A stretch of DNA of 63,227 nt, counting the filler, from Kipferlia bialata (taxonomy: Eukaryota), in the NCBI GenBank assembly GCA_003568945.1. It is 5 parts of 5 records of this genome, joined end to end, with 100 filler letters (N's around TTAATTAATTAA, not from the genome) between each part and the next. Parts side by side here need not be neighbours in the genome. Positions count along the whole stretch, not along the records: positions 14,081 to 28,055 come from BDIP01000873.1; 4 more parts are not named here. The stretch is one strand, 5' to 3'. The translations under genes were made by a program, and so were the position numbers. Below, one piece after another: positions 248-56,295 of the stretch (the first letter of the stretch is position 1; the number at the start of each line of letters is the position of its first letter). A model generated the notes under the pieces. The model saw only the letters and a program-made list of their open reading frames with translations. It did not search any database and was not told the DNA's origin.

Positions 248-3200
248 GTCCCCCTCTTTGATGACACTGTGTCCTTTGGCCGGTATGCCTCCTTCATCCA
301 GAGGAGCAAGGAGGCAGCTGCTGCAATGGCACCCACACAGGGGGCAAGAGTAGGTAGGACAGCTGTGTCTCGCTCTCACTCGCTCTCACTCTCTCTTTAG
401 ACACACCCATGTGGTCCAGAGTAGGTGTGACATCTCCACCTCTACCTACCAAGTTCTTTCCTAACTCCCAGCTCTATCACGTGACACACTCTCTCCACTG
501 TTATCCCTTACTCTAGGCCTCCCCCTGGACACCCTGTCTCCCTATGCCTCTGTCTCTGGCACAGTGGACACAGACACAGGTAACTTGGTATATATTTTTA
601 CAGATAGATAGAGAGTGTGTGTGAGAAAGTGAGAGAGAGTGATATGGCACAGTGGACACAGACACAGGTGGGTGCATGTATGCATATATGCATGTGTATA
701 AAATATATATACCCACTTGTGCCTCTATATGTATATATACAGAGAGACAGAAAGAGAGAGAGAGAGAGATGCCACAGATACAGGTGTTTATGTTTACAAT
801 CTAGTATTACGATGCCTCCCTACTGTGACTGACCCCCAGGCACGGGTCTTGGGTACATGGTCAGTCTGCTGGAGAGAGAGAGCGAGGCACAAGGTGGGGC
901 AGATGTATACCTATATGTATACTATGTGTATAGATCATGTACCCTCTGTGCCCAGACTCTAGTGACTCTGACCCCACCCACCCTATCTCTCTCTCTCTAT
1001 TTCTCTCTCTCCCTAACCTCAGACTCTGTTGACTCTGACCCCACCCATGCACATACCCATGGCATAGAGGAGACCCCCCTAGGGACTCTCCTCAGACACC
1101 ACGGCAGCACACTGGTGGAGGACCACTGGGTACCCTCAGGGCACCATGTGCAGGAGATATGCGACAGGGTCACCCACCTCAAGCTGGATGACACACACTC
1201 CAGGCAGAGTGGGAGACAGAGTATGGGTACACCTGGCCAGAGGGTGTCAAGGGGCAGGGTGAAGGGGAGGGGGGTGGCCTCACCTGGCAGTGGTATCATA
1301 CGGAGGGGGAGCAGGAACGATCTGACCGAGGGAGACAGAGAGAGAGAGAGTAGCTCCCCTAGGAACTCCAGGAGCAGCAGTGTGGTGGGGGGTGGGGTGG
1401 GGCTAGGCAGGGAGGGGCCCATGTCGCCCCTGACCTGTGTGGACCTGGCACCATATACCCACCTGGTCTCTCTCTCCCTCTCCGTGCCTGGGGGTCCCCC
1501 TCTCCTAGTGGGTATACAGCCCCTCAAGCAGACTCTGACATCAATAGCAGTAACAAACACACCAATAGGTACAGTACAGTGTGGATATGGATATACTGTT
1601 TGCTCTATGTCATCCGCCCATTTAACACCCGAGGTATTCCCTATGGTATCCCTCAGTATCAGTATCAGTATAGGTCCTATGTATTTACTTATATACATAC
1701 CCTGCCTGTCTGACCCCCAGGCCTCCCCTCCGGCATCCTCCTAGCCGACCTAGGTGATGGTGGTCTGGACTCTGACCTGGGGGATGACACATTTGGCCTA
1801 TCAAGTCAGGGGGCAGACCTATATACCCGGCTGATGCAGGTACTGATGTTTATATGTGTATGTATATGTATATCATTAGTGTTTATTATAATGCTCTACA
1901 CACGGCTGATGCAGGTATGTATAGGGTGTGTATATACAGATATTCATGTAGAGTTATAGTGTATATGGTAGTGAGGTATCTTATCCCAGGTCCCCTCTCT
2001 GTCTGCTGACGCTGACCCCAACCATACCCCCAGTGGCACAGGCACCCACACACCTCTGTCCGGGGTAGGTGCCCATAGTGGCACACCCACTACCAGAGGC
2101 ATCATGAGTGGTATGAGTGGTGATAGCCCCACCCCATCTGGCCTAGGGGTGCGTGGTGTGCTGTCCCCAGGTACCCATGCACTGGGCACATACGACCTGG
2201 TGGTGCATAGGTCGCCATACAGGTAGGGGACATATGTATATATATACACACACACACACACACACTCTCTCTCACTCTAGGTGGGAGGCCCTGACCTCTC
2301 TCTCCCTCACCAACTGTGGCATAGCCGCCATGGACCCCTCCCTCCTTCTGCTGCCCTGCCTCACCAACCTGGACCTGTCCTACAACGATATCAGGTATAC
2401 TCTGGTGTATATGCATTCGTATATATGTACTAATTCTCATTTGTATACAGTGTATATATTACGAGCTTTACCGCCACTCTATATATTGCTTCTGAATGAT
2501 TATTCATACAAAGAATGAGAGAATGAGTGTGTGTGTGTTTTGAACCTACCCAGTGTGTATTACGTAGCCTCACCCCCAGACGTGTTGCCTATCTGTTCAT
2601 GTCTCCCTGTCTCCACACTGTCAACCTGTCCTTCAACAGAATAGCCAGTCTGCAGGGGATAGGGGCAGAGGTCGGATCAGTGGCAGACCTTAACTTGAGG
2701 TATCCAAGTCTAAGTATATATAATTGTTAGTATTAGTATTTGGTGCATATCTTCATATATGAGTGTGTATACAAATATTCCTCACCCCTCAGGGGCAATG
2801 AGCTCCGCAGTCTGGGTGGTCTGTCTGGACTGGTGGGGCTGGAGAGACTGGACCTGTCTAAGAACATGCTGCCTAGGTATTGTATGTGATATATATACAT
2901 ATATATGTATACATATACTCAGATGGTAGTATGTATAACACTATATACTAGAGGCTGGATCTGTCCAAGAACATGCTGCCTAGGTTTCAATATTAATATA
3001 TGCATTTATGATTGATATATGCATTTGTATTCATATGTGTGTGTGTGGTAGTTTGTGGTATTTCATATAGTAGAGGCTGGACCTATCGAAGAACATGCTG
3101 CCTAGGTATATATCATATGTATTTGAATATGTGTACATACTATATATATATATGTATGGTAGTATGATATATACTAGAGTCTAGATCTATCTAAGAACAT

Positions 3201-6200
3201 GCTGCCCAGGTATATGATATATATGTATATATATTAGTATATGTATACTTAGATGGTAGTGTGTATTATATAATATACTAGAGACTGGACCTATCTGAGA
3301 ACATGCTGCCCAGGTATAGGGTTTGTATATGCATATACATGTACATACAGACTTCAAGAGACACATTAGTCTGGACCTGCCCAAGAATATATATATAACC
3401 CCCCTCACCCCAGGTTCCAGTCCATCCTGCCCCTGGCCAACCTATGTATATGTTAGTCTATATTATCTTCATATATACTATGTATACTGTCGATATAGTA
3501 AAGCGTATGTACCCTGACCCCAGGTTCCAGTCCATCCTGCCCCTGGCCAAGCTACCTGTGCTGTACAGTCTGTTGCTGGAGGATAACCCCATGTGCACCC
3601 TGCCCCAGTACAGGTATGTGTAGATGTATATATATACTATATCATAGATGAGAGATATTGATTGATATAGAGTTCTTTACTAGTATTAGTATACATTCTA
3701 TTCAACCCAATATGCACCCTGCCACAGTACAGGTGGGTATATATATATATATGTATGTATATATTGATATTGATATAGAGTATATATGGGTATATGTACA
3801 CTCTATTCAACCCAATGTGCACCCTGCCCCAGTACAGGTATGTACAGATAGATATATATATATGTATATATATATTGATATTGATATTGATATAGAGTTA
3901 TATACATATATGGGTATATGTACACTCTAGTCAACCCCATGTGCACCCTGCCCCAGTACAGGTATGTATCCATTGTATCATTATAGTATACTAACCATGT
4001 ACCCCGGTACAGATAGGGCACAGACACCTAGGTACACATCCACTCTTCACCCTCCTCACCCCTAGGGTCCAGACCCTTATTCTCCTCTCCACCCTGTTGC
4101 AGGACAGAGGGGTCGGGTTCTGCCTCGACGAACTAGCACCCAGTCAGGTATGTATAATAATATACCATATTATATATACAATAATATATATATAGATATA
4201 GAAAAATTGTATATGACTTGTCCGTACTCCGTCTCGATGAGCTAGTACCTAGTCAGGTATTGATCTACAACACACAATTTCATACTCATACTTCATTTAG
4301 TGCCATAGTTTATCACCCGTCAGCCATGTTTATAACTGGCACCCAGTCAGGTGTATATATACCCACTAATACTTTCCACAAAGAATTGAATTAGAGTGTA
4401 TCATCTTCGTATCTTACCTGTCAGGAAGAGCTGCTCAAGGTGCACCGTGTGCTTGATAGGGCAGAGGCACGGAGGAGAGAGGCAGCCGTAGTAAGTGCCG
4501 ATGCAAGGGTGACACATCTGCTGAGGGGTGGGAAGGAGAGGGGGGAGAGCATGGAGTCTGAGGAGGAGGAGGGGGAGGGGGAGGAGAGTGACATGTCAGA
4601 TGAGGGGTCCTGGGGAGAGGGGCCAGGACTGGTGGTGGAGGAGGCGTACACACACACCTCACCCACCCTACCCACACACCCTGAGGCTGCAGATGGTCTT
4701 CAGTCCCTACAGTCCCCAGGGGGAGAGGGAGAGAGAGAGGGAGACGAGTCCACCCTGGAGGGGGACGAGGCCTCTGTGTGGTGCATAGATGGCACTGATA
4801 ACGAGGTGTCACTCACTGATAGAGAGAGAGTGCTGTCACCCGGGGGTACTGGGGTGGGGTCGCCTGGCCTCACTCCCTCTAGGACTAGGGGGAGGGGTAG
4901 ACGGAGAGGCGCTAGGATACAGCGGTACGCACATGGGTAAACCCTTCCATGACGGGATCCACTTCCCCCCTCTCTCATCCTCTCTGACCCTCAGACATAT
5001 TGTGGACATCCCACCCCTCCAGTCTGTCCAATATATACATACATACATATATATACACAAGCAGTACATATTTCCTTCTGACCCATCAGACACATTGTGG
5101 ACATCCTCCCCCCCTCCAGTCTGTCTGAGCCATTGGAGAGGGCACAGGGCGAGGTGGAGACACTCTTGACTAAGCTGGAGGACGCCCTGTGGCTCAGGGA
5201 CTATTGCAGGTATGCCCTTAGAGTAGTGTAATAGTATGCTATTCATGTCCTTCTTATAGTAGCATAGTAGTATACCTATGTCTCACCCCCAGGGCTGGCA
5301 AGGCCCAGGCCAGGGATGGCCGCCATGCCTCGTGGACATCGGTGCATATGGAGGTGTGTCACTACTCTATATACTGTGCACTCTCTCTTAATGACACATC
5401 CCTCATCTCACTTTCAGGGTGCCCCCACGTGTGCCGACCTCAGCCACATCTATGAGAGACTGACAGCACTCATAGACGGGTACCCATACTCAGTACGGGC
5501 TAGTATCACAGGTGGGTGTATCTGTAGTATAGTCCCTACCAAGTACCCCCCCCCCCCGTGGATATGTATGTGTATTAGCGTACCTGCATACTCCCTCTCA
5601 CCCCAGAGCAGTACATGTCTAGACTGTCCTCTCTGTCTGAGGCAGTGTATGCTGCTGAGACCGGGACAGATAGGGATGGGAGGGAGGGAGAGACTCTTGG
5701 GGGGCAGACTCTGCCTGCCACAGACTCCTCTCACTCTCTCTCCACATCCACCTCCCCACCCCATGCACTTGAGGTGAGTTCTCTCTCCTTCCAGGCTGGG
5801 ACATCCCTAGGCAGAGAGAGAAACAGACACCTGCTGCATGTAGAGGAGTCGGACACGGAGAGGGAGAGGGAGACAGCCATAGCACTCCAGGCATCTGCCC
5901 TTCCAGGTACACTGATTACTGATTCTAATAATGATCCTGTACACTGATACATTACTGATTACTGATACTAACACTGTATACTAGTACTGACACTGATACC
6001 CAGGTGGTGCCTCTGCCAGCCTTGTGTCCCAGGCACCTACTATGAGGGTGTTCCTATTGGACCAGGAGGTGCAGGTGGGGGATGTCTTAGATAGTACACT
6101 ATATTAATACGTGTATATCTTCTTACCCCCCAGGCCCTTGCCGATGCTGTGTCCACCCCGATGGTCCAGGGTGACACGCTCAGGAGAATGGCACAGAGGC

Positions 6201-13980: not shown

Positions 13981-14080
13981 NNNNNNNNNNNNNNNNNNNN
14001 NNNNNNNNNNNNNNNNNNNNNNNNTTAATTAATTAANNNNNNNNNNNNNNNNNNNNNNNNNNNNNNNNNNNNNNNNNNNN
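13981..14080. other. Artificial contig spacer (N-TTAATTAATTAA-N)
   Basis: Six-frame stop linker flanked by Ns. Confidence 0.98.
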
Positions 14081-14130
<50 letters not shown>

Positions 14131-14155
14131 AATATCTGCGTCCTGACATGCAGAA

Positions 14156-14520
14156 GTCACCCTCGGGTATATATAGGTTATCTCCGAGCGTCCATGCATA
14201 AAAGAGAGGCACATTGACACTGGCAGCTGTTATCAAACATGTACACCTCTCTACTAATACCTATGTACATATACAGAGTGAAAGTCTCCGAGTCCAGCAG
14301 GTTCAGAGGCCATATGTCCATCATCCCCATTGTACTGGCAGAGATCGACACAGAGGGTACTCTGGACCAATTGAGAAAGACCATCAGTCAATCAGGACCA
14401 ACAAACCATTTCCCGTTTGCCAAACGGTCAGTATCAATCTACACGTATATATACTTCCCGAAGTGCCTGTGAACTGTTCACTGTGACTCTGAACGCACTG
14501 CATCGTTGATGGTCTGTTAA
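14156..14520 (+). CDS. Possible 3' exons of a hypothetical gene converging on the RNF213-like gene
   Basis: AG-bounded open segment ...VKVSESSRFRGHMSIIPIVLAEIDTEGTLDQLRKTISQSGPTNHFPFAK (~14278-14425) has coding-like composition. No family recognised. Confidence 0.3.
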
Positions 14521-14628
14521 TAGACATCTTACATGATTCCCAGGAGTTTAGTACAAAGCAATGCCTCAATCGATACGATATCTCTATTCCAGTAGACTCA
14601 AGAGAGACTAAATCATATCCTCACTTTC

Positions 14629-17600
14629 CTACTCTTCAGCTCCAATCTCCTCCTCCTCGACCTCAAGGGGTTCTTGGTCTGACTCGGTCTCAGCCTCAGT
14701 TGCTCCCGAGACACAGGCCAAGGCCTCGATCATCGTCCCTGAGTGGCAAATGCACATACCTAATTTCAGAAGAAGAAGAACAGTATTGAATGTATATATC
14801 ACATCAAACTTACCCTCCAGCATGTCGAGGTGGTCCTCGTTGGCAAGCTCAATATATTCATCAATGGGATAGTGAGCGAAGCTCTCGTTCACACTGAACC
14901 CAGGGATCGCAATTGATATGGCATTAGAGAGGTCAGTGAGAGAGAGGGTGTCTAGGTGCTCAAAGAGATGGTCCAGAAGACCCTCAGGGAGAGGCTTCAT
15001 GAGGAAGGCTGGGATAGGGGGAGGTACCAAGAGCTGTAGCAGCGCGTCCATGTGGCACAGACACACGGGTGCACACTCCACCTTGGCCAGAAGGTCCCTG
15101 AGGCAGTCAAACAGGGGATCAGAGGGTAGGTGCTCTGCCACGGTATCCGCCTCCACATTGACCGCTGGCCTCTGGTTCAGAGTGAAGCACACACGCAGCA
15201 AGGGGTTACGCAGATGGTCAAGGCGTACACCGCGTAACTCTGCCACTGCGTCCTGGAGCTGGTATATCTGCGTAGGCATCAGAGGTGTCTGGGGATTGTG
15301 TAAGCACCTCATGCTCACCCCACTGACACCAGAGTCCACAGGAAGAGGCCGTGTGGGAATGTCACCATGTGCTAGAACAAGTAAGGGGACACCCCTTGGC
15401 AGCAGCAGGCTGTGGAGCGAATACATCCGCTGGGTGTATGCCGCATCGGCCTCCTCTGCGGTAGGGTAGTCATTCCCTAGTCTGCTCTGCAATGCAGCCA
15501 CAAGGCCCAGGGACATGGACGTGTCTGTGACATGCACAGGTGTGTGCCACGCAGAGACGTTCCCGGCATTTGGATCGAGTAAGGCACTGAATGTGTTGAG
15601 GGCAACAACCAGCGCCTCCACATACTGTTCCACGAGGGAGGGATCAGATGCCCCAGCGTCTCTGGGCAGTACCATGGCACAGAGACAGTCATCAGAATCC
15701 ATGGTCTTCCAGACAAATGCCTGAGAGTTAGGTGTCGTACACCCACTATATTATGGCTATTGCAAGATCTATACCTCACACTGGAAGGACAGGTCTCCTG
15801 CCAGGTCTGGGACACTGTTCCAGGCTTCAGTGAAGCCTGTGTACTGGGAGCCAAGCCCAATGTCCTTGCACGTGTCACTCAGGTTGGCAGCCGGGTCGCA
15901 GTCGATGGCAACCGCGTAGAAGTCCTTCAGGAACGCTGTTATCACCTGTGTCAAAACAAGAACTGAAGGTGTTCACTACACACTATTATAACTCACCTGA
16001 GTAGCCTCCATGAGCTTGCAGAACCTGGTTGTTCCCTCCAGCAGCTCTATGGATGACACTGGGTCACTGTCCTGTCTCTGCGGCATACGTGGCATCTCAG
16101 GCTGCGAGAGTGGCAGAAGGGCCAGTCTGTACTGGTCAGGACTGGCCTCAGCGGCAGCTTCGACCTCAGTCTGGCTGTAAGACCTTCCAGTATGGCACCC
16201 TCCCACTTGGTTGGAGATGTGGGCTGTAAATGCCTCCAGGACATGGTTGGCAAAGTGCTGCATGTGTGCCAGACGGGGGGACGCGACACCAATATCCTTG
16301 GGTAAGTAAAATTGAACATCAAGATAGACGGGATACGACCATGACGTTGTAAACACATTACCCACCTGCTGCATAACGGCCATCACTCTGGCGTGGAAGG
16401 CAGCCTCGGGCCCTGCTCTTTGGGCCTGTGAAGGGAAGGATAGTGTCAGAGAGGAGGAGGCAAGTGCCTTGGACACCTTTACCATGGTGATAAGGGCGGC
16501 GTCCCTGCTGACCTGTGGGTAACGCATTGACTCTTTGCACTATTATATACAGATATATATATATCACCGCACCTCTAGAGCCTTGGCAAACAGAGCCAGT
16601 TCCTCTTCCAGACGAGTAGCCCAGAGACGCCTGATCTCGGCATCCTGAGTCTGCGCCTGGACTAGGGAAGCATGGGTGGCAGCAATACGGGCAACCCCAG
16701 TACTGAGCCTTGAGAGACTGCGCAGCTTGGGTAAGACACATGGTAACGATTACCACATACACTGTAGTATGGGAGCCTACCTCCATATAGTCCTTTTGCG
16801 TCTGCCAGCCACGCAGGTCTGCCCCTGTGTTTACAGCCCTGTTTCCAGCCACATAGCTAACGATCAGTGAGGTACAACAATGAATATGGATGAGAGTGGC
16901 GAGGAGAACAGACATACTTGTGATGGGTGCCTCCAATTGGCCGCCCACAGCTGGGGCACTTAGAGATCTCCATGGGGCGTCCACAGTTGGTCAGCACATA
17001 GATTTCTCCGCATACACAGCTGGGTAAGTGTGGAGATGTATGTGGCAGTCTGACTTGTAAAGACCAAAGACACTACTATTTTCAGTGTAAGACTCGTACC
17101 TGTTAGTGCTAGTACCAAGCTTCCTGAGGGTGTCCATCAGGTCGTCTCTCATGCCCATGACGTACTGGTTGGGTGTCAGCACACACTGGAGTCCGACCTG
17201 TCTCAGGAGAGCATCCAGCACTGCCCCATGGGTAGGTCCCTCAAAGAGGGCAGTGTCAATTCCGAGACTGTCTGTCATTCCCTCGACTGTCAGGGGTCCA
17301 AGGCTGGATGGCAGGAGATCAGAGGCACCAAAACGAACAGGGTGTGTCAGGAAGTCTTCGTCGACAGGACTCAGATCAAACCAGTCTCCACAAGCATGCT
17401 TCATAGCTGCGCAGTACTCTCTATCGTTGCCAAAGGATGAGTTGGCAACCTGGCGCATCAGGTAGTTCCGAAGAGGTAACACATGGTGGTCGTTGATCTT
17501 CACAATGGAAAGAGCCTCGGGAGAGGGGACCTGGCCAGTCATGATGTCCTGAGGTTAGCATCAGCTACGCGGCACTGACATACATGTTTGTCGCATACGC

Positions 17601-20600
17601 CTTGATCAATAAATCAGGTAGCCTAATCTTCTGTCTTCTATACCTGTCTCACAACCCTCCTTAGCTGCATCTCTCCAACTGCTAGGGCACAGAACTGACA
17701 CTGGTTCTTGGAGAACCATCTGAAGGCGGCAACAAGCTCCTCACTCGCCAGACCATACCTTTTGTGAGGGTGACGAAATCGTAGCAATCGCAGCAGAGAG
17801 AGAACGTATGATAGAAGATTCTGGAATGTGGCTCAAATCTCCCTACCTGCATCCAGCTAGGACATTGACGAGAGAGCAAATGACAAAGGGGCTGTCCAGC
17901 AGCAGTCCCTCTGAGAGAGCAAGCCTTTCCTACGTGTAAGTGTGTGATATGCGTTTGTATACACGTTTCACAACAGTCTACCTACCTTCACAGCATCCCA
18001 GGGGACATCCACATGGTTGACGGTCAGGGCAAATAACTCACACCAGTCTCTTGCCCTACCCGTACTAACCATGTGCTTCAAGAGCTCGTGCAAGGCAGCC
18101 CACATAGTTTCCAGACCCATACCCTGTACCATGTCAGCCAGGAGGACACACAGAGGCCCTGGGAGAGCATTCACCACATCGAACATGTTGTGGGACATAA
18201 CAGCCCGTGCTGCACGGATTGCGGGGCCGCAGACACTGCCATCCGCAACGTGCTCGCTTGCATGGGATACTGCCTGGTACACCCTATAGGCGTGACGTAC
18301 CGGACAGCGTGAGGGCAAGGCACATACGAGCTCCGACACGAAGTCTGCGTCAAGGTCGAGGAGTCTCTCAATACCGACTGCCTTGGCAAATGAGGCGGCT
18401 CGGTCTGCAAATGTGTCTCCACTGAGGGCTGCGAGGTCTATGTCTGTGCCAGTGTACTTGGCCATGGAGATGGCAAGGTAGAGACAACGGGTCTCCAGGT
18501 AGTGGGCAAACCCAACCATCAAGCTATTGGCCCCATCGGCAGGGCGTATGGGAGAGTCGCACCTCAGCACGGCCTCCAGCCTGGGCACCAAGGTGTCGAC
18601 ACTAGAGGCAGTGACAAGTGGAGCGTCTGGGTTACCACGGAGCTTGTACTTTCCAGAGTGCTCTACGGTCTCTCTCAGAATGGCACGTAACACCACGTGG
18701 GAGTCCTGCAGCCCATCAGGGAGGTCCCTCAACAACTCTGGAGTGAGGTGCTTAGCAAAGGGCACGTTGGCTACCGTGACAGAAGCAGCACACGAGGTGT
18801 CCAGACGGGCATCGAGGTCCACAAGCTCTGTGACGCCGTTAAGGTACGTGGTCCATTCTCTAAGACCGCACTTGGGAATGAGGTGGGCAAAGAACAGAAT
18901 GATGTCTGACTCGGCGGGAAGATGCGGCACTCTCGCACATAGCTGACCGGCAAGAAGCGGAAGGATGCGACCAAAGAACCACATCCACCCGTCCCTAGGG
19001 GATCCACTGCGGAACAGAACTCTAAAGAGCTCGGGGAGGGCCTAGGGTGAATTTCTATAAATACATAGCACAACCACTCTTCAGTGTGTTAACTCAAAAC
19101 TCTAAATAACAGATTACCCACCTGGGGGTTGCTTAGAGACCTGTGGACTACTGGAAGCATCATGAGTCTCTTGAACACAGCTGAGGCAACCGCATCAACT
19201 GCAGCCTGAGTAGCAGTCCCAGAGACGTTCTCTACTGACCAGCGCACTGCTAAGTTCCGCCGGACCTCTGTCTTCAGGGTGTACATCATGTGGCTCTTGA
19301 GGGTGTCGATTGACTGCTGAGTACATGAGAAGAGGTCCCTAAAGCTGATGCTTCTGCTGGTAGTGTCTGACGGGTCTAGGGATGGGAGAGACCATGTGGG
19401 ATCCGACAGAATGGTCTCCTCAACGGACCAGTACTTGGAAGTCTCTGTTCCAGAGTTCTTAGAACCACCCCTAGCATCACGCGCAACACACTCAGCATGT
19501 ACAGTCCTATGGTATGGCAAGTATCGGCGGCGCTGGGCGGGTGTGAGGCACTTGACCAGGTCCCGACGAAGGGACAGTGGGGCAAAGACACTAAGACACT
19601 TGTACTTGGGACCAAGTGAGGGGAAGACTTCAATGAAGCCAAGTCGGGAACTGAGAATGAGAATTTGATAATCTAAGTTCAATGATATGGTTGACCTATA
19701 CGGAGACATACTCACCGGAGGTCTTCTGAGGTGTTGCCATGGAGGCTGATACGGTGGACACCCTTGAGAGTCCTCTTAAGACTTCTGCGGAGTTCAGAAT
19801 CAGTGGGCTCTCTGTCCATCCGTTGCTTCAACTTAGAGACATCTGCCATGGTGTACACAGTCTCTATGCCAGCGTCGCTACTGACATGAGGCAGGAACGG
19901 ATCCCGAGTGAAGCATGCATTGATGTAGTGGCACTTCTTGGTACGAGCATCCTCCCTGAGGCTCCTCTCCTTGGCTACCCAGTCATCACAGCTCACATCC
20001 CATGCTGCACCCAGACGCTGCCAGGCCGCGGTGTCAGTCTCCCCCTTTGTGTTGACGAATGTCGGAAGCGGGTCAAGGTCCCGGTTGATGTGGTAGACAG
20101 ACATGCGGGACAGAGTGGAGTCTGGGATGTGGGTAAGGGCAGAGCGGTGCACAATGAACAGCAGCCGCATTTGCGAGTTGACGCTAATGGTTTCCTGATA
20201 GGACCCATGGGCTAGAAGAGCACTCCCACTGCCACTAGTCTGGTAGGACATGTTCAGAACCTGTCGTCAGACTCGTAAGATAGCTGAAGGATATATCAGC
20301 GCGGACATTTGCATACCTGCTGCAGTGCTATGAGGAGATCCCCAGGGTTGTGGAGAATCAGACTGTTGGCCGACAGTGCTGTGTTCCGAACTCTGCCATC
20401 AGACACACCTGAATGCTGGTAGAGTGACTTCACATCTATCTCATATACATCTGTATACCTGTGAAGACTGGCAAATGCCGATGTGCGGCTGCACTGCCAC
20501 GTGTGGTCCTTACATCGATACTTCTTCTCGCCAATCGCCATGAAGGCTGCCACTATATTCTGAGTCAGGCGATGTCAAGTTACTATGTAACTTCATATGA

Positions 20601-23600
20601 AATCAGTGGTAACGATTGACTAACCTTGTGTGCAACAGCAACTGCCTCCTCAGAGTCTACCACGAAGAGACAGTGGCGAAGCGGCTCGGGACTGAGAGTA
20701 AGGGAGCGGGCTATTGAAGAACGTAAGTCGTCTTGACATGAGATGACTGTAGATACATGTGCCATATAGTATTCAAGTACCATGTATAATCTTGGACAAT
20801 AATAGTAGATCAAACCTGGAGAGCGTCATGTATTTGCGGAGCGGCATCGTGTCTTCCTTGTTGACGACCTGAAGGAACCGGTCAGGCGTCTTGGCATCGC
20901 GAGACCCCAAGCAAGTGTACACAACGCGTCTGTAGAGGTTGTCAGTGTCGTTGGATGGGTGGGCCTTGAGGAACCGGGCAACAGCGACAATGTGCCTGCA
21001 GTGAGATATATCTATGGACACAATCTAAGGAGTGACTGACCTTGGAGAGAGACGGAGGGAACTGGCCACGTCCTTGTATCGGTCCAATACTGACTTGAAG
21101 ACCTCCTCTGTGGCAGCTGGGACGTCCCCGAGGTGCATCCTGCCTATGGCCTCGAGGGCAGGGCCAGAGAGGGGCTCGTATATGGCCTTCATGAACCTGC
21201 CTCCAAGGGCATGGTCGTAGGGCAGAGACCCGTCCAGTAGACGGTTGGTAGAGCAAATGACGGTGAAGTTGCGGCGCCCTGTGGATGTCTTGGGGTCCTC
21301 CTGCTTGTCAAGGAGGTGATGCAGTGCCTTGCGGGCGTTCTGCGTCATCAGAGACATCTCCTCAATCACAATGATGGTGGACCCAGTGCCAGGGGTGGTG
21401 TCGTCCTCCACCATGTGGGCCAGACGGTCGATAACGGTCACAGAGTCCCCCTGAGTGAACTGTAGTGTCCTTACGTCTGGATACAACAGGAGCTGCTTTG
21501 GAACAGCAAAGTGCTCAGTCTGGTTCCTCCCCCGTCTCTTCTCGTCTTTGCTCTGCTCAGTATCTCTGAAGGGAAGCATGTGCACAAAGCTTGATATGCA
21601 CATGGTCTTAGAGACACCTGAGTCAGAAATGTGGGAGTCAGTAATGTCAGGAAGAGCAATGCGCTGCTTCGTTTATATCACATACCTGCTCCTCCGACTA
21701 GAAGAAGTGACCTGTTGCATGCCACCGAAATGGCCAGGAGCAGGAAGTTCTGCTTGACGTATGGGGTGGCGACCATCTTGTCCTCCTTGACAAAGCGAGT
21801 CTGAGGGTGAGGCCAGAGAAATTGAGTAATAAGTATATAGACATGGTACTAACCTTGACATCGTCTAGGAGAGACTCGAATGCCTCTCTGCAAGTATCCG
21901 AGTCCCCCTCAGCATCTAGGTGACTCTCTGCCAGGGAGAGGAACCCCTCCAGAGTAAGCTGTGCGCCAAACACAGCAAACGTGGCGATGAGAACGACAAG
22001 CTTATTGTCGACAGTGCCTTGGCGGATATACTTCAGCAGCTTGACAAACTCTCGGTGCTCTAGCAGTTCTGCCAAAGACCGCAGGTCTCTGAGCGAGGGC
22101 TCAGCAAGCCGTTCGTCCTTGATTGTCCGCATCACAGCAGTGCAGAAGGTGACAACGCTGTCCGTCTCACTGCTACTCCAGGTGCTGGTGGCTCTTCTGA
22201 TGAAGTCATGGCGTTGGACATCAGTGGGAGGCCGTACATTGAAGGCGCACCTTGCCACAGCAGGATGAATGCGGTACACGTGGTAACGGTGGGAGTCACT
22301 ATCAGATGAGGAGGGAGACCCAGGGTTGCATGTGCCAATGAAGCGCAGGTTTGGAGGGAGAGGAGTCCATCTACCCAGGACCTCGTCCTTGTACATGCCA
22401 TCGACAAAGAGGGCCTTGAGGGAGTCGCCGATGTCTGAGGCATTGAGCTCGTCCAGCATCACAACGTAGTTCTTGCCACGGTTGGTGGTGCTCTTGGCTT
22501 CCCTAACGTATTCACAAACGCTGTTCTTCCAGAGCTGTTTCGTTACAAATCCAGCCGTGAGGATAGTCACGTTGAACGTAACATCTAGGTGACGGATCAT
22601 CTTGAAGTAGTGTCTGAGCAGGTAGGTCTTGCTGGATCCAGTGGCACCGCACAGTATGAGAGGGGGAGGGGAAGCTCTCTTGCAGCTGCTGGTCAGAGCT
22701 GTGGCGTCACCTTCTAGCCAAGCCGTCATGTTCTGGTGCACATACTCTAGAGTCTCCTGAACGTCAGCAGCCGAAAAGAAGAGTAGACACTCCATTAGTA
22801 GTATATATGACACAGTACTGAATCTACCTGACACTGCTCTGTATATACAAAGCCCTCTGTTCCACGGGTCTCCACTGGAGTGAGGTCCACGTTATGGTCC
22901 TCACAGAGCCTCTTGTTCCAGAGAGCGTCGGTGTCACATGGGGAGGCCGGAGGGTCATCTTCACCATCAGTCGGCTTAGGAGTAGCCCACAACCCACCGT
23001 TGAAAGTGATGCAACGGTCTGGGGGAGCCAGACACTCTGCAACAGACCAAGGAGATTCATCGAAGTTGGGCACAACAATGTCAAGAGTGGGAGTGAGTAG
23101 AGTCTGGGGTGAGAGACATCTGCATACAGTCACACCTTAATGTCTTAGACAATTAACGTACATGCATGCTCTCCATCACTAAGCCGCAGACACCAGTCAG
23201 AGCAGCAGACAAGAGCTCTACGAAGAGAGAGCTCTGACGCACAGCAGACGCAATGGGGTCAGTCCCAGTGAAGAAAGTATCAGTGACCCAGGTGGACTGA
23301 GGTTAGGATCAGGACTAGTACTGAGACAACTACCGACAAAGTGCTATCGTGCCTCCTTTGGGCGGGCCATTTCACATGGCAGCACAGAGCTGAGGAACAC
23401 ATCGGGTAGTCTGGATGACTCGTCACAGTTGTACACCCTGAAGGACTTATCCTGCTCGGGCCAGCAGTAGTCACCTTCACACTTGTGCACATACACCTTC
23501 CTGTTGGACACAGTCCTGGAATAAGTGTGACATACTGCGGGATGAACATAATGGAACTTGTCTTACAATAGCTTGTATATACCTCAGCTTCGGTGGAACA

Positions 23601-26600
23601 CGGTCAGTGGCTGTCACAGTAGAGCCAGAGGGAAAGAGTCCAGAGAGTGCAGATCCGGGTACCAGTAGAATGATCCACTGGACCCCAGCACATGCTCTCA
23701 TGCGCTTAATAAGTGCCATGCAGCTTGGGTAAGAGGCCTAAATTTCAAACATGGGAAGATAATCTCTATACCTGTCGAGGGGGAGTGCATCCAGACCGGA
23801 CACAACCATGAGAGGCCTGACATAGCGGTTCTTTATCCGCCACATCACTCCAGCTAACCTGGAGTCCCTCACTAGGTTGTCGTGCAATGCTATGAATGAC
23901 AGTGGCTCAAACGACTCAGAGGGCGAGAGGTCTCCGAGAGTATTGGCGAGAGTGTTGAACCCTGCCTTGAGCGTCTGGGGGGCAATGATGCGGAACCCGG
24001 CCTGTGCCCCGCTATCAGGCAGTGGCACCAGAGATAGACCAGAGGGAGTCGGCCTGACCTCTCTCCCAGGACCCCAGAAACCGGTGTCAAGGAAAGAAGC
24101 CTGATGTGGGAATGAAATACGCAAATGCAATGAATGCTACCACTACCCACCTGTGGGTTGAGGTCCTTCTCGCTTTCGACATCCCTTGGATGCAACTTGC
24201 CATATACTCCGGTGGCTCTCCTGACGTAGCGGGCCAAGTCATGGTTGCTGTCAACCTGTGTGAGAACTGGATGTGTGACAGTATGAGGAGGTCCAAAGGT
24301 AATGATGATCTACCTCCGAGAATCTGATGTCGTCGACGGTCCATATGGTAGTGTAGGTTTTAGGAAGCCCAAGAATGCTCTTTGTCGCCTGGCACTTGTA
24401 CTCTCCATCGACAGGGTCAGCCTGGACCAAACACTTAGGTATCTGGGGTAAGACCTACTTATGGATTGATACTGTACCCAAAATAGCGGCCCAAGAATGT
24501 GCATAAGTACCTTTCCAATGTCAATGACGGCAATGTCCCTCAAGGTCTGGATATAGTCAGACACCAACTCAAGTCTCTTGAAGAGGTCCTGCTCGCACTC
24601 TCGTGCTAGGTACATGACAAGAGGCTCGATGTTGTGGCTGCGAATGACAGCAGTGCGAGACTCCAGGGTGCCGCTGGAGGTGTCTTCCCTCTGCTTGGTT
24701 CCTGCCACATACATGTTCTCGCAGTTGGTGGACCTTGGAACACGGAGACCATATCTGATCTCGTATCCCCGGTTGTTGACCCCGACCTCTATCACGACGA
24801 GGGCGGCAGTCACAACGTCAGTGGCCGAGTCATTGAGCTTCAGACTTAGCTTGGTGGAGTCCTCTCCCAGTACAACCTGACATTAGCAAATGGCACTAAG
24901 AGTGACTGTTGCATCAGTATCAACATCAGCATTACCCCTATGTACCTGAGAGAAGCGGGACAGTACGGACTGCATCCTCAGAGCAGGGATAGAGACAGGT
25001 ATACCAGCCGGATCCAGTTTAGCAAGGTATGCGGTGAGAACCTTCTCTGAGGGGTTGACAGCTAGCAGAACCAAGTCATCTGTTGGTCCGAGCAGCCACT
25101 GACATGAGAATAGGACAACGATGGTATGAGGCAGCACTGTTGTATGTCACGATTACCTGTACATTCTTTCTGAGCACGTCGAAGTCCCTCCCTGCCCCCC
25201 TGGTCTCACAGGTCAGGAAGTAGTTGGACAGGGACTTGGCGTCCTGTAGCAGCTTCATAGGCTCCTCTGGATGGTCCTAGGGTTAGAGGGATATGACAGA
25301 ATACGCAGTTAGTGACTATTCAGCCCTATATTACCGCCGCACTAACCTTAAGGTAGGATATGCATGTGTAGAGGACCAGTGAGACCTCATCTACGTGCTG
25401 CACCACACCGCCATTAAGGCTAGGAGTCGTGGACCCCTGTATGGGACAAAAGGTACCCAGATACTCCAGATCCCGTCTATGGATCGAAGGCCAGTCCTTA
25501 ACAGGGAATGGGTTCTTCAACCTGGAGCATTAGCTGAAGTCATATGCCAATTGTATAAACGTCTCTCTGTACCTCAGTCTAATGAGTATGTTTCTGATGT
25601 GGCCCAGCATGGACCTGTGGGGCAGGATGTCAATGGCACTCTCTAGGAACCCTGCCAGACGCTCACACTCTTGGTCTCCCAGACCCCTGAGTAGCCCTAT
25701 GTCCTCCTGAGACACATCTGACACATAGGCAGGGATGTGGTCCAGGTACCGGCTGCTGGCCCTGAGAACACGCTCTACACCCTTAAAGAAGGAGGTATCG
25801 TGGGGCACAGAGGGCCGAGCCTGGGCCACCAGGTCACGTGTGAACGGGGCCATGCGGAGGAACTGGCACGACTCCACGTTGTTGAGAACAACACACCCGT
25901 GCAGGGCCTCATCCACCTCCTGCTGGACTATGCTCCAGGGGGTGTCGGGGTGGAAGAGGGGGATCTCGGCCTCCCCCTCCCCGAGACTGACCACTGCGTC
26001 GCCTAGGAACTCCTTAACAAAGGCCAACCGAGCAGTCTCTGGCTGGGAGTTAGTAATGAGTAAATAGAAAATGAGTATACACCGTACCACTATACCACAC
26101 CTCCATTGTCTCTGAAGGAATGCGTTCGCCCAACACCTGGATATCTCCAAGGGTGGCAATACCAGATGAATACCTGAGGGTTACTATACCTATATAGTCT
26201 CAGCTGTATATAGCCTCAGTTAGTCACCTGATATAGAACAGCAACACAACCACTCACCTCACACTAGATGCAAGCACCGGGGCCCTGGCGGCCAGTGACT
26301 CAGGCACGCGGGCAGTGGTGAGGGACCAGCCCTTGGCCAGTGTGAACTGGAGGCCGATGGAGGGGCTCTTGAAGTGGTCCAAGACAAGGCGAACGAAGGA
26401 ATTGGAGTGCACCCCCTTGTCGATGTGGGGCATGATGAGGCTAATGTGCTCCTCCTTGACACAATCGCCATGCTCACTGAGTAGAACCCTGGCCACGCGC
26501 AGAATAGAGGACGGGGACACAGAGCCTTGGTTCAAGAACTCAGTCAGGACAGGCTCGTGCAGCAGGACTCGGCAGCAGGAGGTGAGGAGAGGGGCCTTCC

Positions 26601-27902
26601 AATCGCCTCTCTTGGATGGGACAAAAGAGGTGGGCTTGGGGGCAGCAAGGACGACGTTGAGCAGAGCGATGCTGCCATATGCCGTCACTGCTAGGTCCTG
26701 CATCTGATTGAGGGTTGCGTTATTGGGAATAGTAGACTCTAGTTGCACAGCCGACGTCAGGAGGGTCTCCTTGTCCTCCTACAGTTAGATTAGACATACA
26801 AGAAGAGACACTGTGGACACTCATATATAACGGTAGAGGATGACAATACCTGGAAATATATACATCCATATATAGTGGATGTTCTTACCGGGGAGAGGGA
26901 TGACAGGTCTGGGCACCCCCACTCTGCAGCCAGCATGGAGGGGTTGGCCACATAGGCAGAGAGGTAGGCGGCGGGGTCCTTAACCTGAGAGGTCTTGATA
27001 CTCTGTTGCACAGCGTCCTTCACAACCTGACATCAGGGAATGGGGGGGAGAGAGAGAGGGGGGGGGAGTGCACATGGCTATAAGTGATCCCTGAACCGCA
27101 TAATCACACCCATACACATAGACATACATTCATATATATACATATATATTGCTTGTGTCATACCTTCTGCAACTCCTGGGGCCTGTCAAATAGAAATCCT
27201 ATCAGCTCTGGGCATATGTTGCACCTCTTTAGTCTGCCGAGGGCTTTTTCTAGGCTATCATAGCCCGTAGACTCGAAGTAGGATGTGACCTGGGTGAGGG
27301 TATGACAGAAGAGAGAAAGATCAATACGACAGCCGTACTAGGCCTAGTAGCATTAGGAATGTCATTGAACACATATGAATTCCAGTCGCAGTACCTTGGG
27401 GTCGTTGAAGTGGTTCTTGATGTGCAGAAGAAGGGCCTTAATATACCTGGTTGTGGGTATTATATAATAGAGGGTTTCTGAGTACATGGTACTCATACAG
27501 ACTGATCTCATGAATTGAGGAATAGAGGGCTGGCTCATACAGTGTCAAGGTATAGGACACCATCCTAGGTGTGGAGTGGACATATTAAGTAAGTGATACA
27601 CTACTACTACTGTGCTAGAGAGAGAGACTCTGGTCTGACTTGGGTGTAGCTATGAACCCTAGCATATGGGACAGGAAGCCCAGCCCCTTGATCTGGGGGA
27701 GGGGGAGGGGGGATGACGGGACGTGATCAGGAACCTGAGGGTAAGGATATATATGTGAAGAGGAGGGTGGGGGGTGGGGGTGGGGGGTGGGGGAATCTGA
27801 ATAACATTGTGAGCAGAGAGAGACCAGGTAATTCACACACACCTGCATCCTCACAACTGCACTTGTGGTCTCCCGACTTCGTTTAGACCCCCCAGAAGCC
27901 AC
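14629..27902 (-). CDS. Giant RNF213/mysterin-like dynein-type AAA+ ATPase, many short introns, probably 5'-partial
   Basis: First module PPLILCGATGSSKT..VVMLDELNAS..LKALFVDG..LPPNLRFIGTCNP..YHVYRIHPAV. Second module VATPYVKQNFLLLAISVACNRSLLLVGGAG|VSKT (intron 21618-21685)..IIVIEEMSL..KALHHLLD..VICSTN. Downstream LILHNPGDLLIALQQVLNMSYQ..LLAHGSYQETISVNSQMRLLFIV..IPDSTLSRM. These follow the RNF213 AAA core motifs in order (GETGCGKT..FFDEANT..IAACNP..VYRVH; NLALKENVFMMVVC..LFLVGKPGSSKS..VLDEVGL..KTLHPLLE; LLLNLQNLYESLYDALNQ..LGLGTHRV..VHPNFRLIVIE). Last exon 14629-15702 ends in an acidic tail. Single-gene continuity over 13 kb is inferred. Confidence 0.8.
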
Positions 27903-28055
27903 CTGGTTCTGCCTAGACCGAAGGGTGCCCAGAACTGGTTGAATCTACTGTGAGGCAGTGAACAGAGAGTCTCTAGTTGACAACTCAATGGATTGAGATG
28001 GCGCGGGGGGAGGTGAGTGCGGGGGGGGGGGGGGGGTGGCAAAGGAGGGGGGAAA

Positions 28056-56195: not shown

Positions 56196-56295
56196 NNNNN
56201 NNNNNNNNNNNNNNNNNNNNNNNNNNNNNNNNNNNNNNNTTAATTAATTAANNNNNNNNNNNNNNNNNNNNNNNNNNNNNNNNNNNNNNNNNNNN
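56196..56295. other. Artificial contig spacer
   Basis: N-TTAATTAATTAA-N. Confidence 0.98.

What the first reader, a model, noticed from the sequence alone, without database searches (positions are those of the whole stretch)
19712..22834. RNF213/mysterin-like giant AAA+ protein in an apparent metamonad flagellate
Seen: three successive motif blocks matching the RNF213 AAA core within a ~13-kb, nearly all-coding locus (roughly 3,500-4,000 aa by span). Established: animal RNF213 is an ATPase/E3 that ubiquitylates LPS on cytosolic bacteria via its RZ finger. Inference: a bacterivorous anaerobic protist may have a related cell-autonomous defence sensor, pointing to deep eukaryotic ancestry or lateral transfer.
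Basis: partly seen in the sequence, partly recalled or inferred. Interest (0 to 1): 0.7.

Follow-up and report, generated by a model that had tools for sequence, protein, structure and literature searches.

The report
Compact RING-less RNF213 relative in Kipferlia
A bacteria-eating anaerobic flagellate has a spliced gene for a very divergent, shortened relative of the human immune ubiquitin ligase RNF213, with the two active ATP sites and the catalytic RZ zinc finger but no detectable RING finger, so it likely works as an ATP-switched ubiquitin ligase; a role in defence is untested, and similar proteins are common in other single-celled eukaryotes.

Summary
The three blocks are AAA3, AAA4 and AAA5 of one minus-strand gene (14629-27848, 40 exons, 3,451 aa), already deposited as Kipferlia bialata GIQ82956.1, 'RZ-type domain-containing protein'. 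An RNF213-family profile built without it matches all three blocks in order (64 bits; best of 200 shuffles 3.0). RNA contigs confirm all 28 splice joints that were displayed. Profile and Foldseek searches rank RNF213 above dynein and midasin, although the first exon alone hits dynein weakly. No RING, CBM20 or AAA2 P-loop was found; AAA1, AAA2 and AAA6 are unresolved. An ATP-gated RZ ligase is likely; defence is inference. Homologues in ciliates and rotifers, 39 introns and no true bacterial hit favour old vertical inheritance over transfer, but no rooted tree was possible. This scan has noted RING-less protist RNF213 relatives several times on other DNA. New member of a known kind; its value is the metamonad data point and a culturable test system.

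The parts
14629..27848 (-). Whole gene: 40 exons, 39 introns, 3,451 aa (P0001 = GIQ82956.1, KIPB_004190); ATG at 27848, TAG at 14629-14631
   Evidence: P0001 found at 100% identity, named, mapped to the window; 28 of 28 displayed RNA joints match its exon borders
27849..27950 (-). Transcribed leader with an in-frame TAG at 27945-27947, 33 codons before the ATG; about 700 further nt of the RNA contig are not in the window
   Evidence: RNA contig of 2,049 nt maps to 27950 and then runs on as a loose end; frames; loose-end letters not found in the window
24443..27848 (-). N-terminal region, residues 1 to about 770; no Pfam family, no CBM20 detected
   Evidence: Pfam on exons and on the whole protein
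22828..24442 (-). Expected place of AAA1/AAA2 (residues about 770-1190); unresolved, no GK[ST] P-loop
   Evidence: No GK[ST] anywhere in the protein; region profiles find nothing; pLDDT under 50
22070..22666 (-). AAA3: Walker A G1228-ATGSSKT, Walker B MLDE1294LN, sensor 1 GTCNP, sensor 2 SLRD
   Evidence: Pfam AAA_5 E 3e-5; family profile E 4e-16; motif columns; pLDDT mostly 80-90
20974..21764 (-). AAA4: Walker A G1528-GAGVSKT, Walker B VIEE1617MS, sensor 1 CSTN, arginine finger GGR1671F, sensor 2 SPRH
   Evidence: Pfam AAA over 1524-1677; family profile E 2e-6; alignment
20084..20681 (-). AAA5, degenerate (no Walker A or B), keeps the arginine finger LSR1916 that would serve AAA4
   Evidence: Family profile E 1e-4 at 1830-1923; aligned to family PFLNRFEK
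17986..19041 (-). Largest exon, in the E3-scaffold region where vertebrates carry the RING; no RING motif
   Evidence: No Pfam hit; no RING pattern in the protein; Atlas hits weak and helical-repeat-like
16920..17140 (-). RZ finger: C2791-x-C2793 ... C2802 (nucleophile position) ... C2811, C2814 ... H2823 (base position), preceded by a helix with L2777
   Evidence: PF20173 E 7.5e-13 on the exon, 3.2e-14 on the protein; aligns to mouse RNF213 4403-4497
15775..15942 (-). Weakly conserved post-RZ block F..AW...F.C (residues 3051-3106)
   Evidence: Post-RZ family profile E 0.008, 0.6 bits against best shuffle -2.9, at the expected place; marginal

Best explanation
This is a spliced, transcribed gene for a compact RNF213-family protein that likely works as an ATP-gated, RING-independent ubiquitin ligase, and whose likely job is to coat bacteria that reach the cytosol, or damaged food vacuoles, with ubiquitin. 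Shown: one reading frame carries AAA3-AAA4-AAA5, then an RZ finger, in RNF213 order; AAA3 and AAA4 keep Walker A Lys, Walker B Glu, both sensors and the arginine fingers that serve them. Inferred from mammalian RNF213: ATP binding at AAA3 and AAA4 opens the ligase; an E2 docks at the C-terminal domain and passes ubiquitin to C2802, with H2823 as base; the zinc is held by C2791, C2793, C2811 and C2814, the second Cys standing in for the mammalian His. Odds: RNF213 family about 0.93; ATP-gated RZ ligase about 0.8; antimicrobial or vacuole-surveillance role about 0.5; LPS as the substrate about 0.25.
For: Family profile without the query matches three blocks in order, far above 200 shuffles. All 7 non-self hits among 1.84 billion representatives carry the RNF213-type AAA3 motifs; the best, P0002, hits only RNF213 in the PDB (E 9e-38). 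Whole-protein PDB search returns only RNF213 (5 of 5 rows, E 0.003-0.005). Profile of the AAA3 exon with 6 of those hits: RNF213 1e-27, dynein 1e-10, midasin 9e-9. Foldseek ranks 1-8 are RNF213 (2e-25 to 4e-23), dynein follows at 6e-20. RZ spacing 11-9-3-9 from C2791 equals human C4505-C4516-C4525-C4528-H4537 (residue numbers from PMC11549300, passages). Only AAA3 and AAA4 are active in mouse RNF213 (PMC7311170, passages); ATP binding there is necessary and sufficient for E3 activity and the RING is dispensable for LPS ubiquitylation (PMC12075652, passages). L2777 sits 14 residues before the first Cys, like ZNFX1 I1835, which is needed for activity (10.1101/2025.10.14.682297, passages). The organism feeds on bacteria.
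Against: No functional data. The AAA3 exon alone hits dynein (E 0.01) and not RNF213 in the PDB, the AAA4 exon hits nothing, and the Atlas lists midasin clusters among equal 0.95 scores. The Foldseek result is partly circular, since the model was folded on an RNF213-family alignment. AAA1, AAA2 and AAA6 were not detected, so a six-module ring is not shown. The E2-docking domain and the scaffold before the RZ finger match no family profile, apart from one marginal block. The mammalian His ligand is replaced (E2795), and in mouse loss of a zinc ligand kills activity (10.1101/2021.05.10.443411, passages), so the CxC substitute is an assumption, though 41 of 77 homologous RZ fingers show it. No CBM20 or other sensor was found. 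Mammalian RNF213 also has non-immune roles (lipid droplets, hypoxia; abstract).
Confidence: 0.55

Rival explanations
1. Same enzyme, housekeeping job: an ATP-sensing RZ ligase for lipid droplets, organelle membranes or protein quality control, with immunity a later animal use.
For: No sensor domain detected; transcribed in the one RNA-like run laid; no paralogue from this organism surfaced among the named hits or in the window, unlike an expanding immune family; mammalian RNF213 acts in lipid droplet formation and hypoxia (abstract).
Against: Extreme divergence (terminal branch 2.66 against a median of 0.39) and many distinct copies in rotifers fit conflict, though metamonad proteins are often fast-evolving (recalled). 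Paralogues could not be counted, since no genome was held.
Confidence: 0.3
2. A decaying or uncoupled relic: the ring has lost modules, the ligase no longer answers to ATP, and only parts work.
For: Shorter than relatives: AAA3 at 1,228 against 1,436-2,518 in 59 long homologues, AAA3-to-RZ 1,563 against 1,855-2,373 in 43; AAA2 P-loop absent; in-frame stop in the leader could mark a lost N-terminus.
Against: Intact 3,451-codon frame over 39 introns; every catalytic motif of AAA3, AAA4 and the RZ finger kept while overall identity to the family is only 18-25%, which points to selection on those residues.
Confidence: 0.08
3. A dynein or midasin derivative that picked up an RZ finger independently.
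For: Single-exon PDB hit to dynein AAA3 (E 0.01); Pfam AAA_5 and AAA_7 labels; VIA lists dynein and midasin on top (Z 17-19, rmsd 4-6, 530-640 aligned).
Against: VIA leaves out chains over 3,000 residues (note) and the RNF213 chains are 4,387-4,584 long, so it did not compare them. Dynein has a long stalk between AAA4 and AAA5: the model's three modules span about 1,150 residues of dynein but 750 here. No dynein-specific tail, stalk or MIDAS/vWA Pfam hit. RNF213-type blocks lie in family order with the RZ finger near the end.
Confidence: 0.05
4. Origin rival: the gene came by lateral transfer (from bacteria, a virus or another eukaryote) rather than by descent.
For: An RNF213-like frame of over 2,941 codons lies on a giant-virus-labelled contig (L014), so a vehicle may exist; no other metamonad homologue was seen among named hits.
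Confidence: 0.15

Closest known systems
Mammalian RNF213 / mysterin (PDB 6TAX, 7OIK, 8S24, 9JW1)
   Same: Order AAA3-AAA4-AAA5 ... RZ ... C-terminal domain; only AAA3 and AAA4 with full catalytic motifs; RZ nucleophile and base at identical spacing
   Different: 3,451 aa against about 5,150-5,250; no RING, no CBM20 detected; no AAA2 P-loop; first zinc ligands CxC instead of CxxxH; 13-15% identity in the structural alignment
Unnamed protist and rotifer RNF213-like proteins (P0002; Stentor SteCoe_6230; Blepharisma; Adineta, Rotaria)
   Same: RING-less (0 of 43 with a RING pattern between AAA3 and RZ); CxC-type RZ in 41 of 77
   Different: Those are 35% identical to each other at the median and keep GE[TS]GCGKT at AAA3 and often an AAA2 P-loop (38 of 92); this one is 18-25% identical to any of them and about 1,000 residues shorter
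Cytoplasmic dynein and midasin (Rea1/Mdn1)
   Same: Tandem AAA modules in one chain; same fold for modules 3-5
   Different: No stalk, no MIDAS; RZ finger present; lower profile and Foldseek scores
ZNFX1
   Same: RZ finger with a preceding ubiquitin-binding helix
   Different: SF1 RNA helicase engine instead of an AAA ring

Membership tests
RNF213 / mysterin family | Tandem AAA3-AAA4-AAA5 homologous to RNF213, in order | tested here: met
RNF213 / mysterin family | Full catalytic motifs at AAA3 and AAA4 only | tested here: met
   Walker A, Walker B, sensors and arginine fingers aligned; AAA4 Walker B reads EE for DE, as in 6 of 100 homologues
RNF213 / mysterin family | Six AAA modules in one ring | tested here: inconclusive
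   AAA1, AAA2, AAA6 profiles find nothing, but they also miss the divergent control P0006; model unreliable before residue 1165
RNF213 / mysterin family | RZ finger with catalytic Cys and His, C-terminal to the ring | tested here: met
   PF20173 E 3.2e-14; C2802, H2823 at human spacing; same frame as the AAA core
RNF213 / mysterin family | C-terminal E2-docking domain | tested here: inconclusive
   661 residues follow the RZ finger (family 510-909); only a marginal block matches; the fold job for this part had a wrong alignment
Vertebrate-type RNF213 (full architecture) | RING finger in the E3 module | tested here: not met
   No Pfam RING, no RING pattern; only 3 CxxC in the protein
Vertebrate-type RNF213 (full architecture) | ATP-binding P-loop in AAA2 | tested here: not met
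   No GK[ST] in the whole protein
Vertebrate-type RNF213 (full architecture) | N-terminal CBM20 | tested here: inconclusive
   No Pfam hit; N-terminus not folded
RNF213 / mysterin family | ATP-gated transthiolation; ubiquitylation of LPS or pathogen surfaces | not testable with these tools
   Needs biochemistry and cell work
Dynein heavy chain | Stalk between AAA4 and AAA5, dynein tail and linker families | tested here: not met
   About 60 residues between the AAA4 lid and AAA5; no dynein-specific Pfam beyond the generic AAA_7 score under its cut-off
Midasin (Rea1/Mdn1) | C-terminal MIDAS/vWA domain | tested here: not met
   No vWA Pfam hit on a C-terminus that is complete to the stop codon

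The most novel reading that the evidence does not exclude
RNF213 is a last-eukaryotic-common-ancestor machine for ubiquitin-tagging microbes, and this metamonad protein shows its minimal working core: two ATP sites and a four-cysteine RZ finger, without RING, CBM20 or the AAA2 nucleotide, used against bacteria that escape the food vacuole of an anaerobic phagotroph.
Probability: 0.3. Interest if true: 0.75.

Novelty: new member of a known kind. Interest (0 to 1): 0.42.

Why it matters
Papers in the held library treat RNF213 as a vertebrate or mammalian immune factor, and my searches found none describing it in protists. A transcribed homologue in Metamonada, added to ciliates and animals, puts the family in three distant eukaryote branches and argues for an origin near the last common ancestor. 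Its stripped architecture shows which parts selection keeps (AAA3, AAA4, RZ) and which can go (RING, AAA2 P-loop). The organism grows with a single Gram-negative prey species, so the question whether LPS ubiquitylation predates animals can be tested directly. The surprise is moderate: the RZ label is already in the public record and RING-less protist relatives are common.

Tried and rejected
No whole genome was held, so paralogues were not counted; within the window the family profiles hit only this gene. Word-index protein searches with the AAA3 exon and with residues 1190-2010 found no relative: the protein is too divergent for them. My own splice model had 50 introns, several false; RNA joints and P0001 replaced it. 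VIA searches listed no RNF213 because chains over 3,000 residues are left out; they do not rank RNF213 against dynein. The second fold job (residues near the C-terminus, pLDDT 46) rested on an alignment that scattered the query over whole proteins and is discarded; it was not searched. Profiles for AAA1, AAA2, AAA6 and the 420 residues before the RZ finger found nothing; shuffles reached 5.5-9.3 bits on two of them, so weak blocks need care. The tree is unrooted, lacks vertebrate, dynein and midasin rows, and pairs the query with P0006 (support 0.99), probably long-branch attraction; it says little on origin. NCBIfam gave no hit. 26 other long frames of the window gave no Pfam hit. No run is on record as RNA; X2 is a guess, but its joints are absent from the DNA run. 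Ten paper searches listed no paper on RNF213 in protists or metamonads; I saw listings only for most. The paper that defined the RZ finger was not held; its extended data, and the alignment supplement of PMC7311170 (not read), may list non-animal homologues. Stop-codon readthrough at the leader TAG was considered and not supported: the upstream sequence is not in the window.
Full report
1. What is there. The region 14.6-27.8 kb reads as short exons and 45-190 nt GT-AG introns on the minus strand. A search of 1.84 billion representative proteins with the AAA3 exon returned the gene's own product, P0001, 3,451 aa, at 100% identity; its sources name it GIQ82956.1, KIPB_004190 of Kipferlia bialata, and 'RZ-type domain-containing protein'. 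It maps to 40 exons from an ATG at 27848 to a TAG at 14629-14631, 10,356 coding nt. Kipferlia is a free-living, bacteria-feeding, intron-rich fornicate (PMC5874029, passages).

2. One transcript. Contigs of run X2 (RNA by guess, same sample as the DNA run X1) cover all 30 bins of the locus and show 38 CT..AC joints that the DNA run lacks; one more joint was dropped at a repeat. P0001 has 39 introns. The 15 joints displayed and the 13 all match its exon borders; 10 joints in the middle were not displayed. No single contig spans the gene. Four contigs tile it: they overlap at about 18.8 kb and at 25805-25825, and two end about 10 nt apart inside the 903-nt AAA3 exon (my arithmetic from record lengths). 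Each junction lies inside an uninterrupted exon, so 'separate transcripts' is not supported. X2 is not independent of the annotation. The 5' contig runs about 700 nt beyond 27950 into sequence not in the window and has an in-frame TAG 33 codons before the ATG, so the short N-terminus looks real.

3. The three blocks. From a search with the best non-self hit P0002 I took 120 of 248 relatives; with P0006 that gave 121 proteins, 100 had a regex-detectable AAA3 Walker A, and 55 non-redundant ones made a profile without the query. It matches P0001 at 1222-1336, 1505-1640 and 1830-1923 in family order, 64.4 bits; the best of 200 shuffles gives 3.0. These are AAA3, AAA4 and AAA5. AAA3 has GATGSSKT, MLDELN, GTCNP and SLRD; AAA4 has GGAGVSKT, VIEEMS, CSTN, the arginine finger GGRF and SPRH; AAA5 lacks Walker motifs but keeps LSRM, the family's PFLNRF arginine finger. 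This is the mammalian pattern, in which only AAA3 and AAA4 are catalytic (PMC7311170, passages). AAA1, AAA2 and AAA6 were not detected (the same profiles also miss P0006), and the protein has no GK[ST] anywhere, so the AAA2 nucleotide site seems lost; 38 of 92 homologues keep a strict AAA2 motif.

4. RNF213 against dynein and midasin. Against: the AAA3 exon alone gives dynein AAA3 at E 0.01 and no RNF213, the AAA4 exon gives nothing, the Atlas ties RNF213-like and midasin clusters at 0.95. For: the whole protein returns only RNF213; all 7 non-self hits have RNF213-type motifs and P0002 hits RNF213 at 9e-38 with no dynein or midasin at 0.01; a 7-row profile gives RNF213 1e-27, dynein 1e-10, midasin 9e-9; an AlphaFold2 model of residues 774-1970 (mean pLDDT 59, mostly 70-90 over the three modules, under 50 before them) has RNF213 at Foldseek ranks 1-8, with the caveat that it was folded on a family alignment. 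VIA put dynein and midasin first but cannot hold chains over 3,000 residues.

5. The exon 16920-17018 is an RZ finger (PF20173, E 7.5e-13). C2791, C2802, C2811, C2814 and H2823 are spaced 11-9-3-9, as are human C4505, C4516, C4525, C4528 and H4537 (numbers from PMC11549300, passages). The human ligand H4509 is Glu here, with a Cys two residues after the first (CVCG). That form is common: of 77 RZ fingers found in the 121 homologues my pattern classed 41 as CxC, 8 as other, none as CxxxH, and missed 28. The helix before the finger aligns with RNF213's, and L2777 matches the place of ZNFX1 I1835, needed for activity (10.1101/2025.10.14.682297, passages). No RING was found here, nor in 0 of 43 homologues tested between AAA3 and RZ. 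A marginal conserved block follows at 3051-3106. The rest of the E3 scaffold is unrecognised.

6. How it likely works. By analogy with mouse and human RNF213, where ATP binding at AAA3 and AAA4 is necessary and sufficient for E3 activity, the RING is dispensable for LPS ubiquitylation, the E2 docks on the C-terminal domain and the RZ Cys takes the ubiquitin (PMC12075652 and 10.1101/2021.05.10.443411, passages), this protein is likely an ATP-gated transthiolating ligase. The residues kept against 18-25% background identity are exactly those of that mechanism. The target is inference. A phagotroph meets bacteria that may escape or damage food vacuoles, so surface tagging is my first choice (about 0.5), with a lipid-droplet or membrane quality-control role close behind.

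7. Origin. Named homologues come from ciliates (Stentor, Blepharisma) and bdelloid rotifers; 12 more loci came from metagenomes. The gene has 39 introns. Old vertical inheritance is the simplest reading; the unrooted tree is uninformative because of the long branch. A giant-virus-labelled contig with an RNF213-like frame (L014) leaves virus-borne movement open.

8. Novelty. The protein already carries an RZ label in UniRef. Ten paper searches listed nothing on protist RNF213; one paper calls it 'expressed in all vertebrates', and another traces the ZNFX1 RZ domain to choanoflagellates. The paper defining the RZ finger was not held. This scan has recorded several RING-less protist RNF213 relatives on other DNA; my reading was set before that look-up and agrees with them. 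Verdict: a real, divergent new member of the RNF213 family, with a useful phylogenetic position; interest 0.42.

Noticed in passing
L014:1-8823 (IMG/VR contig labelled GVMAG, 35,857 nt): An uninterrupted RNF213-like frame of over 2,941 codons, 57% G+C, on a giant-virus-labelled contig (841 bits to the family profile). Either a giant virus carrying an RNF213-like gene or a misbinned eukaryote contig.
   Followed up: partly
L001:1075-6460 (record titled Stappiaceae MAG, chromosome 48): RNF213-like gene broken into many short collinear frames, as introns would do; likely eukaryotic DNA in a bacterial bin.
   Followed up: partly
window 27849-27950: The RNA contig carries a leader of about 800 nt, of which 700 are not in the window, with an open stretch ending in a TAG in frame with the gene. 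Could be a long 5' leader, an overlapping upstream gene, or a split N-terminus.
   Followed up: partly
window 28160-32500: Short exon-like pieces recur in near-identical tandem copies separated by (TC)n and (TA)n runs, for example around 28430-28590 and 30450-30900; real exon-end duplication or an assembly effect.
   Followed up: no
window 13981-14080, 28056-28155, 42131-42230, 56196-56295: Scaffold gaps written as N runs around TTAATTAATTAA; the gene fills one 13,975-nt contig between two of them, so neighbours beyond the gaps are only scaffold-linked.
   Followed up: yes
window 14130-14593: A second, separate RNA contig covers the stretch just past the stop codon and has a loose end at 14261; a neighbouring gene of unknown kind.
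   Followed up: no
P0006 (unnamed, 1,797 aa): Another very divergent RNF213-like AAA core, the nearest sequence to the query (25% identity); no RZ finger in the record, which may be cut.
   Followed up: partly
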